Positions 58,329 through 58,652 of a DNA stretch of 64,000 bases are shown in pieces (position 1 is the first letter of the stretch; every line of letters begins with the position of its first letter). Under the pieces are notes generated by a model. It was not told the DNA's origin and did not search any database. It worked only from the letters and a program-made list of their open reading frames with translations. Source of the stretch: Bianquea renquensis (GTDB taxonomy: Bacteria > Bacillota > Clostridia > Lachnospirales > Bianqueaceae); assembly GCF_014384895.1 (NCBI RefSeq), contig NZ_JACRSQ010000001.1:99493-163492 (forward strand), written 5' to 3'. The translations under genes were made by a program, and so were the position numbers.

Positions 58329-58652
58329 CCATGGAAAAATCCGCCGGGAGGCGGATTAAAATGAAGAAGCGAAGATTCTTCCAAAGTTCGCGAAGCGAAC
58401 TTATTTGTCCTATGGAAAAATCCGCCGGGAGGCGGATTAAAACGAAGAAGCGAAGATTCTTCCAAAGTTCGCGAAGCGAACTTTTCTGTCCTATGGAAAA
58501 ATCCGCCGGGAGGCGGATTAAAATGAAGAAGCGAAGATTCTTCCAAAGTTCGCGAAGCGAACTTTTCTGTCCTATGGAAAAATCCGCCGGGAGGCGGATT
58601 AAAACGAAGAAGCGAAGATTCTTCCAAAGTTCGCGAAGCGAACTTTTCTGTC
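58329..58652. repeat. Tandem array of four 81-bp repeat units (two hairpins per unit), in frame with the downstream M23 peptidase ORF
   Basis: Units begin at 58331, 58412, 58493 and 58574 with the unit sequence ATGGAAAAATCCGCCGGGAGGCGGATTAAAA[T/C]GAAGAAGCGAAGATTCTTCCAAAGTTCGCGAAGCGAACTT[A/T]T[T/C]TGTCCT. Each unit contains hairpins AATCCGCC-GGGA-GGCGGATT and AAGTTCGC-GAA-GCGAACTT. The same family occurs at 12929-12982 and 40521-40588. Confidence 0.8.

What the first reader, a model, noticed from the sequence alone, without database searches (positions are those of the whole stretch)
58329..58652. Four perfect 81-bp tandem repeats (27-aa period, in frame) forming the 5' end of the M23 peptidase reading frame
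Units start at 58331, 58412, 58493 and 58574 and differ only at two or three positions (AAAATG versus AAAACG; TTATTTGTCC versus TTTTCTGTCC). 81 is a multiple of three, and every unit opens with ATG in the peptidase frame, encoding MEKSAGRRIK[M/T]KKRRFFQSSRSELFCP. The last unit runs directly into a hydrophobic segment (LVLVCIVYGC) that resembles a signal or anchor for the LytM-domain enzyme. Each DNA unit also contains two perfect hairpins (AATCCGCC-GGGA-GGCGGATT and AAGTTCGC-GAA-GCGAACTT). On the opposite strand the first hairpin is followed by TTTTT, so it is terminator-like. The same sequence is therefore either four tandem intergenic REP-like elements or a variable-copy N-terminal extension that changes the cytoplasmic tail length of a secreted cell-wall hydrolase (slippage changes copy number while keeping the frame). 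None of the candidate ATGs has a Shine-Dalgarno sequence, which argues that the units are non-coding and that the true start may be unusual.
Basis: seen in the sequence. Interest (0 to 1): 0.7.

Follow-up and report, generated by a model that had tools for sequence, protein, structure and literature searches.

The report
Hairpin repeat inserted inside peptidase gene
The four 81-bp repeats are copies of a small hairpin-rich repeat element, found elsewhere in this gut bacterium's genome, that landed in frame inside the start of a cell-wall peptidase gene and then multiplied; this is an instructive but not unprecedented example of selfish DNA reshaping a gene's start.

Summary
In detail: TRF finds 4.1 copies of an 81-bp unit at 58320-58652, 97% alike, in frame with an M23 peptidase ORF. 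The array is neither intergenic nor a duplicated native N-terminus.

Relatives of this organism (Bianquea renquensis, Clostridia) give an allelic series. Some have an empty site (221-aa protein). Some have one unit, exactly +81 bp, read through from the native ATG (248 aa). B. renquensis has 2-4 or more units.

The native start is ATG 58257, upstream of the array. The unit belongs to a dispersed family with diverged single copies at about 12926, 40510 and, weakly, 31240 and 667. Most copies begin directly after a terminator hairpin and T-run. The target inside the peptidase gene mimics such a terminator.

In B. renquensis a 1-nt deletion at the first junction makes the native start a 35-codon leader ORF. 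Its TGA overlaps (ATGA) an in-frame ATG at 58361 that has GGAGG 9 nt upstream, both supplied by the element. The peptidase stays under purifying selection (dN/dS about 0.08).

Copy-number variation within the species (2, 3, 4, gapped) is not proven, because short-read assemblies may collapse the array. The closest analogues are mycobacterial MIRUs and Rickettsia palindromic elements.

The parts
58244..58250 (+). Shine-Dalgarno (AGGGGGA) of the native start codon, 6 nt before ATG 58257
   Evidence: The same motif precedes the ATG in the 0-unit and 1-unit alleles (L003, L007).
58257..58364 (+). Native 5' end of the peptidase gene. In this genome it is a 35-codon leader ORF (MWDRKRNVGFGRLSGTKETGELFCPWKNPPGGGLK*), out of frame with the peptidase because one T is missing at the first junction (GTCC-ATGG instead of GTCCTATGG).
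   Evidence: frame and stop at TGA 58362-58364; the same leader is the true N-terminus in the 0-unit (221 aa) and 1-unit (248 aa) alleles. The frameshift is present in all B. renquensis assemblies.
58287..58326 (+). Terminator-mimicking hairpin plus T6 inside the coding sequence. This is the insertion target.
   Evidence: -21.1 kcal/mol here and -23.5 kcal/mol in the empty-site allele L003. The insert begins right after the T-run, as at the other family copies.
58320..58652 (+). Tandem array of four 81-bp units (58331, 58412, 58493, 58574). Each unit is about 71 bp of element plus a ~10-bp direct repeat CTTTTYTGTC. Each has three hairpins (-14.0, -3.9 and -9.3 kcal/mol).
58347..58351 (+). GGAGG within hairpin 1 of unit 1, 9 nt upstream of ATG 58361 (repeated at 58509-58513 before ATG 58523)
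58361..59245 (+). Most likely translated peptidase ORF (294 aa). ATG 58361 overlaps the leader's TGA as ATGA. The product has a 94-aa basic cytoplasmic tail built from the repeats, then the membrane anchor and the M23 domain.
   Evidence: Gene callers in other assemblies start at the equivalent MKKRRFF methionine. The start itself is inferred, not shown.
58643..58687 (+). Hydrophobic signal-anchor segment LFCLVLVCIVYGCSL
   Evidence: highest 15-residue Kyte-Doolittle window, 2.67. Orthologues have a short basic tail and then a hydrophobic helix at the same place.
58877..59179 (+). Peptidase_M23 catalytic domain
   Evidence: PF01551, E=3e-14. dN/dS 0.075-0.098 between lineages.
40510..40590 (+). 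Dispersed family copy C, directly after the terminator of the L32 (rpmF) gene. It keeps hairpins 1 and 3 and lacks hairpin 2.
   Evidence: (E=1.4e-6 with the M23-only profile). The orthologous copy in the 1-unit lineage (L066) is about 88% identical over 56 nt to the M23 insert.
12926..12990 (+). Dispersed family copy D, directly after a terminator between convergent genes
   Evidence: (E=4.3e-4)
31240..31301 (+). Weak, diverged family copy E between convergent genes
   Evidence: E=0.0015 with the four-seed profile; E=0.11. Not significant with the M23-only profile.
667..697 (+). Weak family copy (left module only: AAAAAGTCCGCC-GCCA-GGCGGGT), directly after a terminator hairpin
   Evidence: E=0.016; E=1.5

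Best explanation
The array is made of copies of a short (about 71 bp plus a ~10-bp direct repeat), hairpin-rich, non-autonomous repeat element that is scattered through Bianqueaceae genomes, usually immediately after intrinsic terminators.

1. One copy entered the 5' coding region of an M23 peptidase gene. It landed right after an internal sequence that mimics a terminator (a strong hairpin plus T6), between the codons for the short cytoplasmic tail and the membrane anchor.
2. The insert is 81 bp and its sense frame encodes a very basic peptide. It was therefore tolerated as an in-frame extension of the cytoplasmic tail (the 1-unit allele, 248 aa).
3. In the B. renquensis lineage the unit was amplified head-to-tail to four copies. 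This happened by unequal recombination or slippage between the flanking direct repeats, or by re-insertion after the element's own terminator-like 3' hairpin.
4. A 1-nt deletion at the first junction uncoupled the native start codon.
5. A single C-to-T change (ACG to ATG) in the unit created both an in-frame ATG and, in the native frame, a TGA. The old 5' end is now a 35-codon leader ORF whose stop overlaps the new start (ATGA), 9 nt downstream of a GGAGG that is part of hairpin 1.
6. Translation of the leader should melt hairpin 1 and deliver ribosomes to ATG 58361. The product would be a 294-aa peptidase with a 94-residue, +25-charged cytoplasmic tail made of repeat units.

Shown: the insertion, the family relationship, the amplification, the frameshift and the start/stop geometry. 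Inferred: the mobilisation mechanism, which ATG is actually used, and any effect of copy number.
For: Allelic series in DNA: the empty site GAGCTTTTTTGTC|TTGTCC occurs in four independent assemblies (L003-L006). One unit, exactly +81 bp and flanked by CTTTTTTGTC/CTTTTGTGTC, occurs in three (L007-L009). Two to four units occur in B. renquensis. The matching proteins are 221, 248, 240/267 and 294 aa. Distant orthologues (about 50% identity, about 210 aa) have no insert, so the empty site is ancestral.

Family: a profile built only from the M23 units finds window 40520 (E=1.4e-6), L003 5690-5609 (1.3e-4), window 12928 (4.3e-4) and L003 2089-2008 (0.0096). Covariance model R1 finds the same sites. 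The L32-downstream copy in the 1-unit lineage is about 88% identical over 56 nt to the insert, including hairpin 2 and the preceding T-run.

Target: copies C, D, 667 and L066 begin 0-2 nt after a terminator hairpin and T-run. The empty M23 site also has a -23.5 kcal/mol hairpin plus T6.

Frameshift and ATGA overlap. They are identical in every B. renquensis short-read assembly and in the window. GGAGG lies 9 nt before ATG 58361 and 58523.

The gene is still constrained: dN/dS 0.075-0.098 at dS 0.43-0.49, and the ORF is intact in all strains. The unit peptide has 9 K/R against 2 D/E, which fits the positive-inside rule for an N-in signal anchor. The window lineage is closest to the 1-unit lineage (93.5-94.6% against 87.6-91.4%), consistent with one insertion followed by amplification.
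Against: There is no direct evidence for which start codon is used. GGAGG is half buried in a -14 kcal/mol hairpin. ATG 58331 (GGAGAG 10-12 nt upstream), ATG 58523 and ATG 58574 are alternatives.

The low dN/dS is dominated by the long between-species branches and cannot show constraint since the frameshift.

The element has no terminal inverted repeats, and I did not look for a partner transposase, so 'mobile element' rests on distribution only. A microhomology-driven template switch at T-runs would give the same junctions.

Only the left ~30 nt (CCTAYAGGAAAGTCCGCC-GNGA-GGCGG) is shared by all family members. The right half varies, and the family was sampled from only about 150 kb.

No other predicted protein among 5.8 billion clusters contains the unit in any open frame, so in-frame insertion is not a habit of this family.

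The genome-wide scan failed to reach this organism.
Confidence: 0.7

Rival explanations
1. The peptidase gene is a recently inactivated pseudogene in B. renquensis. The 1-nt deletion cut it off from its start codon, the repeats are junk, and no functional protein is made.
For: The native ATG 58257 is out of frame and its ORF stops after 35 codons in all B. renquensis assemblies. Within-species diversity is too low (0-1 differences in 603 nt) to show constraint since the frameshift.
Against: The 885-nt ORF downstream is intact in every strain. An in-frame ATG with GGAGG at ideal spacing overlaps the leader stop. dN/dS is 0.075-0.082 on comparisons that include this lineage. The unit-1 ATG variant is fixed in all assemblies.
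Confidence: 0.12
2. The array is a contingency (VNTR) locus. Slippage changes the unit number between cells or strains and thereby adaptively tunes the cytoplasmic tail length or the expression of the hydrolase.
For: The unit length is a multiple of three. Assemblies of near-identical strains show 2, 3 (two different unit orders), 4 and gapped arrays, and a T-T-T 3' end where the window has T-M-T. Between lineages, 0, 1 and 2-4 or more units occur.
Against: All the sequences that look long-read-derived (L002, L013) and the window have the same four units in the same order. The 2- and 3-unit versions come from short-read metagenome scaffolds, where an 81-bp repeat with near-identical units makes graph cycles. 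Three scaffolds carry N gaps exactly there. The 1-unit allele is stable across two sublineages (P0126 and P0131). No phenotype is known.
Confidence: 0.2
3. The units act mainly at the RNA level. Each carries a sense-strand terminator-like hairpin 3 with a U-tract, and a hairpin that hides the SD. The array would then be a transcriptional or translational attenuator of the peptidase, and the encoded peptide would be irrelevant. This is not exclusive of the best explanation.
For: Hairpin 3 of units 1 and 4 passes the terminator scan on the plus strand. The unit folds well (z = -3.4). Hairpin 1 (-14 kcal/mol) includes the GGAGG. Family members normally sit at terminators.
Against: The terminator signal is weak (3 sites found against 1.5 +/- 1.2 in shuffles), and units 2 and 3 fail the scan. 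Hairpin 3 is only -9.3 kcal/mol with an interrupted U-run. There are no expression data.
Confidence: 0.2
4. The array is purely intergenic, and the real peptidase starts downstream of it (for example at ATG 58757), as the first reader proposed as a refutation.
For: One MAG annotation calls a 169-aa product from just upstream of that methionine (P0122, starting MTDETKAMG).
Against: That start would remove the hydrophobic anchor LFCLVLVCIVYGCSL, which every orthologue retains after a short basic tail. The 0-unit and 1-unit alleles read from the native ATG through this region. There is no in-frame start between the array and residue M at 58757.
Confidence: 0.04
5. The repeats are a simple tandem duplication of the gene's own 5' end, not an inserted element.
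For: MEKSAGRR in the unit superficially resembles the N-termini of distant orthologues (MGNKAGRR in P0019).
Against: The empty-site alleles contain none of the 71 bp. Paralogous copies exist elsewhere in the genome.
Confidence: 0.02

Closest known systems
MIRUs (mycobacterial interspersed repetitive units)
   Same: Both are short (tens of bp) units scattered through the genome and also found as head-to-tail tandem arrays. Both are oriented with the neighbouring gene and carry an ORF whose stop or start overlaps that of the gene with a -4-nt (ATGA-type) spacing, so translation is coupled and the insertion does little harm (review PMC12548453, read).
   Different: There is no sequence relationship, and the phylum is different (Bacillota rather than Actinomycetota). 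MIRUs insert at start codons between genes of an operon. Here the unit is inside the coding sequence and is itself translated as part of the protein. The ATGA overlap arose by a later point mutation after a frameshift and was not brought in by the insertion. Terminator-adjacent placement is not a described MIRU feature (my own knowledge).
Rickettsia palindromic elements (RPEs)
   Same: Both are hairpin-forming dispersed repeats that insert in frame into protein-coding genes and add a peptide segment without destroying the protein (PMC10969869, read).
   Different: RPEs are about 150 bp, insert into many unrelated genes (44 in R. conorii), and are not tandemly amplified. Here only one coding insertion was found. 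The units are 81 bp and tandem, and most family copies are extragenic.
REP/BIME, BOX and SPRITE-type small extragenic repeats
   Same: All are short hairpin elements that accumulate just downstream of genes near terminators. BOX has an internally repeated module, and SPRITE resembles a rho-independent terminator (PMC10969869).
   Different: This element shows no sequence similarity to any of them and has no Rfam family. It forms direct tandem repeats rather than inverted REP pairs, and it has no terminal inverted repeats. Association with a RAYT or other transposase was not examined.
Bacterial class C group II introns (insertion after intrinsic terminators)
   Same: Both show the same kind of target: a position immediately after a terminator hairpin and T-run. 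This target type is documented for these retroelements (literature located, for example PMC4424553; the details are from my own knowledge).
   Different: Group II introns are ribozymes of more than 600 nt, usually with a reverse transcriptase gene. This element is 71-81 bp with no intron features. The similarity is in target choice only.
In-frame coding VNTRs of bacterial surface proteins
   Same: The unit length is a multiple of three, and copy number differs between relatives without breaking the frame.
   Different: Those repeats are native protein modules on the outside of the cell. This one is an inserted non-coding-type element, and it lengthens the cytoplasmic tail before a membrane anchor.

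Membership tests
Peptidase M23 (LytM-type) membrane-anchored hydrolase | Pfam PF01551 domain above the gathering threshold | tested here: met
   53.4 bits against a cutoff of 28.7, E=3e-14, residues 185-285
Peptidase M23 (LytM-type) membrane-anchored hydrolase | N-terminal short basic tail plus a hydrophobic anchor, as in the orthologues | tested here: met
   LFCLVLVCIVYGCSL is the hydropathy maximum, and orthologues align there. No dedicated signal-peptide predictor was available.
MIRU-like dispersed minisatellite | Copies dispersed at several loci in the genome | tested here: met
   significant independent copies at window 40520 and 12928 and at L003 5690 and 2089, plus weak ones at 31240 and 667. 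The whole genome was not available.
MIRU-like dispersed minisatellite | Head-to-tail arrays whose copy number varies between strains | tested here: inconclusive
   0, 1 and 2-4 or more units between lineages is robust. Within the species, 2/3/4/gapped may be an assembly artefact. Only this one locus is tandem.
MIRU-like dispersed minisatellite | Internal ORF coupled to the adjacent gene by overlapping stop and start | tested here: met
   TGA 58362-58364 overlaps ATG 58361-58363. The overlap was created by a secondary mutation, and coupling itself has not been shown experimentally.
MIRU-like dispersed minisatellite | Sequence homology to mycobacterial MIRUs | not tested
   No comparison was run. 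Given the different phylum, this is treated as an analogy, not membership.
RPE-like in-frame palindromic element | In-frame insertion into a coding sequence that preserves the ORF | tested here: met
   the 1-unit allele reads from the native ATG through the 81-bp insert (248 aa).
RPE-like in-frame palindromic element | Recurrent insertion into many unrelated genes | tested here: not met
   translations of the unit in all four open frames hit only this M23 locus among 5.8 billion protein clusters.
MITE | Terminal inverted repeats | tested here: not met
   the best end-to-end inverted match is 4 nt, and 409 of 500 shuffles equal or exceed it.
MITE | Target-site duplication | tested here: inconclusive
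   a 10-bp direct repeat CTTTTTTGTC/CTTTTGTGTC flanks the single insert. However, the T-run is also intrinsic to the element's 3' end and to the donor-like copy, so microhomology is an alternative reading.
REP/REPIN (RAYT-mobilised) | Inverted pairs of short palindromes and a RAYT (Y1 transposase) gene in the genome | not tested
   The copies are direct, not inverted. No scan for RAYT genes was made.
Intrinsic (rho-independent) terminator | GC-rich stem-loop followed by a T-run | tested here: inconclusive
   hairpin 3 of units 1 and 4 passes on the plus strand. Units 2 and 3 and hairpin 1 on the minus strand do not. The total count is not above the shuffles.
Known RNA family (Rfam) or tRNA | Match at the gathering threshold | tested here: not met
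   the best score is 20.4 bits against thresholds of 35-70; no tRNA or tmRNA.

The most novel reading that the evidence does not exclude
The element is an undescribed kind of tiny non-autonomous mobile element that recognises 'hairpin plus T-run' terminator structures as its target. Its own 3' end recreates that structure, so it can insert behind itself and build head-to-tail arrays without slippage. It also carries a latent ribosome-binding site (the GGAGG of its GNRA-capped hairpin), which lets a host gene recover from insertion damage by adopting an element-encoded start coupled to the remnant of the old ORF.
Probability: 0.15. Interest if true: 0.6.

Novelty: new member of a known kind. 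Interest (0 to 1): 0.42.

Why it matters
This is a clean natural example, with empty-site, single-copy and amplified alleles all available, of a small selfish repeat entering a coding sequence and being tolerated. It was tolerated because its reading frame happens to encode a basic, cytoplasm-compatible peptide. It then supplied a replacement ribosome-binding site and start codon when the native start was lost.

It also has practical value:
- It flags an annotation trap. Gene callers give this protein five or more different N-termini (169-267 aa) across assemblies.
- It flags an assembly trap. The array breaks or collapses short-read scaffolds.
- If the copy number really varies, the locus would be a convenient strain-typing marker for a recently cultured human-gut species.

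It does not open a new class of biology.

Tried and rejected
1. tRNA or structured-RNA identity: ARAGORN found nothing. Rfam gave only sub-threshold noise such as CsrC at 19 bits against a threshold of 61.
2. Genome-wide census with a two-hairpin pattern in the GTDB species genomes: 47 hits, all in unrelated high-GC taxa and none from Bianqueaceae. Even the window's own copies C and D, which fit the pattern, were not recovered. The organism is therefore not searchable there. The scan was wasted and loci L016-L062 are irrelevant.
3. Search for other genes with the unit in frame, using a concatenation of the four open-frame translations: only the M23 locus came back.
4. Terminal inverted repeats: none.
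5. Back-to-back bidirectional terminator module: only weakly supported by the consensus scan.
6. Compensatory covariation across the family: hairpin 1 is kept in every member, with pair changes A-T, G-T and G-C. Hairpins 2 and 3 are not alignable across all members, so I make no covariation claim.
7. Programmed -1 frameshifting at the T6 run as a way to rejoin the native start: there is no X_XXY_YYZ heptamer in the native frame (read from the sequence), so I consider it unlikely.
8. The resemblance of MEKSAGRR to orthologue N-termini (MGNKAGRR) first suggested a duplication of native sequence. The empty-site alleles reject this.
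Full report
**1. The observation**

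The array is real. Tandem Repeats Finder reports 58320-58652, period 81, 4.1 copies, 97% matches and no indels. The units start at 58331, 58412, 58493 and 58574. They differ only at AAAATG/AAAACG and in the junction (TTATTTGTCC against TTTTCTGTCC/T).

ORF 58325-59245 (+) reads through all four units into a Peptidase_M23 domain (PF01551, E=3e-14). The shuffles expect 0.01-0.02 matches to each hairpin sequence in the window. There is also a third, weaker hairpin, GAAGAA-GCGAAGA-TTCTTC. One unit folds at -30.4 kcal/mol (z = -3.4). There is no tRNA and no Rfam family near threshold.

**2. Organism and allelic series**

A protein search with the ORF and a listing of the top cluster identify the organism as Bianquea renquensis or a very close relative (Clostridia, Bianqueaceae; WP_249289141.1). 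Members of the 90% cluster have strikingly different N-termini:
- The 221-aa forms read MW/GxRRRNIGFGRLSGTxVTGELFC-LVLVC and have no repeat.
- The 248-aa forms have exactly one 27-residue insert: ...GELFC-PIGKSAVRRVNSKKRRFFQSSRSELLC-LVLV...
- The B. renquensis forms have two or more units.

I fetched the DNA and extracted the segment between a conserved upstream anchor and the HQYGKAY codons.
- Empty site: GAGCTTTTTTGTC|TTGTCCTG in four independent assemblies (L003-L006).
- One unit: exactly +81 bp, flanked by the direct repeat CTTTTTTGTC / CTTTTGTGTC, in three assemblies (L007-L009).
- Multi-unit arrays in B. renquensis: 2 units (L001), 3 units (L012, L014, L015), 4 units (window, L013, L002), and scaffolds with runs of N inside the array (L010, L011, L063).

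Distant orthologues (about 50% identity, about 210 aa) have only a short basic tail and a hydrophobic helix. The empty site is therefore ancestral and the 81 bp is an insertion.

**3. The native start lies upstream of the array**

The conserved leader MWDRKRNVGFGRLSGTKETGELF is encoded from ATG 58257, which is preceded by AGGGGGA at 58244-58250. The array is therefore inside the gene. It sits between the codons for the cytoplasmic tail and those for the anchor LFCLVLVCIVYGCSL (58643-58687). It is neither intergenic nor the 5' end of the reading frame.

**4. The unit belongs to a dispersed family**

BLAST of the unit against the window gave short collinear matches at 12941 and at 40527/40553.

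A profile built only from the two M23-locus versions (B. renquensis and the 1-unit lineage) was searched against the window with the array masked, plus upstream DNA of two other lineages. It gave the following hits:

| Hit | E-value |
|---|---|
| window 40520-40573 | 1.4e-6 |
| L003 5690-5609 (minus strand, full length) | 1.3e-4 |
| window 12928-12966 | 4.3e-4 |
| L003 2089-2008 | 0.0096 |
| window 669-697 | 0.016 |

A covariance model with the three-hairpin structure (R1) recovers the same sites.

The shared core is the left module, CCTAYAGGAAAGTCCGCC-GNGA-GGCGG, a stem capped by a GNRA-type loop. The right half varies between members, so I make no covariation claim.

The most telling comparison is the copy downstream of the L32 gene. 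It is orthologous in B. renquensis and in the 1-unit lineage (alignment A4). In the 1-unit lineage (L066, from the same sample as L007) it reads TTTTTTC-GTCCTATAGGAAAGTCCGCCGCGAGGCGGATACAATTCCGAAGAAGAGAAGGTTCT. That is about 88% identical over 56 nt to the M23 insert, including hairpin 2. The B. renquensis version of that copy instead keeps hairpin 3. An ancestral three-hairpin copy at that locus is therefore a plausible relative, or even the source, of the M23 insert.

Translations of the unit in its four open frames find no other protein among 5.8 billion clusters. Coding insertion is thus exceptional for this family.

**5. Target**

Copies C, D, 667 and L066 begin 0-2 nt after a canonical terminator hairpin and T-run. 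The M23 site has a strong hairpin followed by T6 inside the coding sequence: GGAAGGCTTTCCGG...CCGGAGAGCTTTTTT (58287-58326). It folds at -21.1 kcal/mol here and at -23.5 kcal/mol in the empty-site allele. The insertion therefore went into a terminator mimic.

The element has no terminal inverted repeats. The junctions fit two readings: a terminator-targeting mobile element with a ~10-bp duplication, or a replication template switch using T-run microhomology. I cannot distinguish these.

The element's own 3' end (hairpin 3 plus CTTTT) recreates such a target. That could allow re-insertion behind itself, but ordinary unequal recombination between the flanking direct repeats explains the array equally well. 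The alternating M/T/M/T unit order suggests that a 162-bp two-unit block was duplicated.

**6. What happened to the start in B. renquensis**

Every B. renquensis assembly and the window has GTCC-ATGG at the first junction, where later junctions have GTCCTATGG. This puts the native ATG out of frame. The native ORF now runs 35 codons and stops at TGA 58362-58364. That TGA overlaps the in-frame ATG 58361-58363 (ATGA).

Both codons are created by the same C-to-T change that distinguishes AAAATG units from AAAACG units. It converts ACG to ATG in the peptidase frame and CGA to TGA in the leader frame (read from the sequence).

GGAGG (58347-58351) lies 9 nt upstream and is part of hairpin 1 (-14.0 kcal/mol). 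This is the arrangement expected for translational coupling by termination-reinitiation. Leader translation would also open the hairpin that half-hides the SD.

The same SD-ATG pair recurs in unit 3 (58509-58513 and 58523).

The predicted product from 58361 is 294 aa, with a 94-residue tail of net charge +25 before the anchor. The unit peptide has 9 K/R against 2 D/E, which suits a cytoplasmic location.

**7. Is the gene alive?**

dN/dS over the 201 codons from the anchor to the stop is 0.075 (window against the 1-unit lineage), 0.082 (window against the 0-unit lineage) and 0.098 (1-unit against 0-unit), with dS of 0.43-0.49. The ORF is intact in all strains. This argues for function. It cannot prove constraint since the frameshift, because B. 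renquensis strains differ by only 0-1 nt here.

Protein identities place the window closest to the 1-unit lineage (93.5-94.6% against 87.6-91.4%). That fits one insertion followed by amplification.

**8. Copy-number variation**

Differences between lineages (0, 1 and 2-4 or more units) are robust, because the 0-unit and 1-unit sites are not repetitive and were assembled independently several times.

Within B. renquensis the picture is ambiguous. The 2- and 3-unit versions, the T-T-T 3' end in L064 and the N-gapped scaffolds all come from short-read metagenome assemblies. The two assemblies that look long-read-derived (L002 and L013, both with frameshifted genes) and the window share the same four units in the same order. 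Units 2 and 4 are identical over about 80 bp, so de Bruijn graphs with k below about 110 contain cycles here (my inference). Slippage-driven polymorphism is therefore possible but not shown.

**9. RNA-level effects**

The consensus terminator scan flags only hairpin 3 of units 1 and 4 on the sense strand. The total (3 sites) is not above the shuffles (1.5 +/- 1.2). An attenuator role is possible but weakly supported.

**10. Comparison with known systems**

The closest functional analogues are MIRUs. These are dispersed units, often tandem, that insert at start codons so that an internal ORF is coupled to the gene with a -4-nt overlap (PMC12548453). The other close analogue is the Rickettsia palindromic elements, which insert in frame into genes (PMC10969869). 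The same review describes terminator-like SPRITE and modular BOX elements. Insertion after intrinsic terminators is documented for a class of bacterial group II introns, but only the target type is shared.

The present element shares no demonstrated sequence homology with any of these. I file it as a new member of the general kind 'small dispersed hairpin repeats that can enter genes', not as a member of any named family. The only two papers that mention B. renquensis appear, from their titles and abstracts, to be a culture-collection study and a poultry microbiome study. I did not read them, and I found no description of such repeats.

**11. Verdict**

Interest is moderate. The case is a tidy, well-resolved evolutionary story with practical consequences for annotation and assembly, but its mechanisms have known precedents.

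Noticed in passing
window 58214-59164 (minus strand): A 316-aa antisense ORF spans the whole array and most of the M23 gene. Four of the six reading frames of the unit are open, so long spurious ORFs arise on both strands. This is an annotation hazard rather than a gene.
   Followed up: partly
L003/L004 1-12000: The 0-unit lineage carries a tandem duplication of the upstream cassette (136-aa protein, two membrane proteins, ABC ATPase; the 379-aa protein appears only once). An IS with an rve integrase is inserted between the M23 gene and the RelA/SpoT-like gene. A family copy sits about 25-30 nt upstream of each 136-aa gene, on the opposite strand.
   Followed up: partly
L007-L009 1-9600: In the 1-unit lineage the genes upstream of the M23 peptidase are a sortase/SpaA-type pilus cluster and an integrase, not the ABC transporter seen in the window. 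Synteny breaks exactly at the 5' side of the peptidase gene.
   Followed up: no
window 59267-59295: The only sigma-70-like promoter match in the region (TTTACG-17-TATAAT with an upstream TG, 10 of 12) lies upstream of the small RelA/SpoT-domain (alarmone synthetase-like) gene at 59423-60244. No promoter-like site was found between the ABC ATPase gene and the M23 gene, so the peptidase may be co-transcribed with the transporter.
   Followed up: no
window 40600-40763 and L066-L069: The long, well-conserved leader between the L32 gene and the HisZ/HisS-like gene (92% identity across lineages, with TTGACA...TATAAT at about 40680-40712) looks like a regulated 5' UTR of the histidine operon, possibly a T-box or an attenuator. 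It was not examined.
   Followed up: no
window 773-803: The only other TRF hit in the window is a 16-bp unit at 1.9 copies (ATAGAATAGAAGATTA), about 75 nt downstream of the weak family copy at 667-697.
   Followed up: no
Genome-contig collection: A pattern that matches three places in the window itself returned no Bianqueaceae contig from the GTDB species-representative collection. This genus appears to be absent or masked there.
   Followed up: no
L002 (GCA_047240925.1): This NCBI MAG is riddled with frameshifts: EPSP synthase is in three pieces, and UvrD-like genes and the M23 gene are split. Its homopolymer differences at the first junction (CTTTCTGTCCATGGAAAATCC) put the native start artificially in frame with the repeats, producing the 'hypothetical protein' P0002.
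   Followed up: partly
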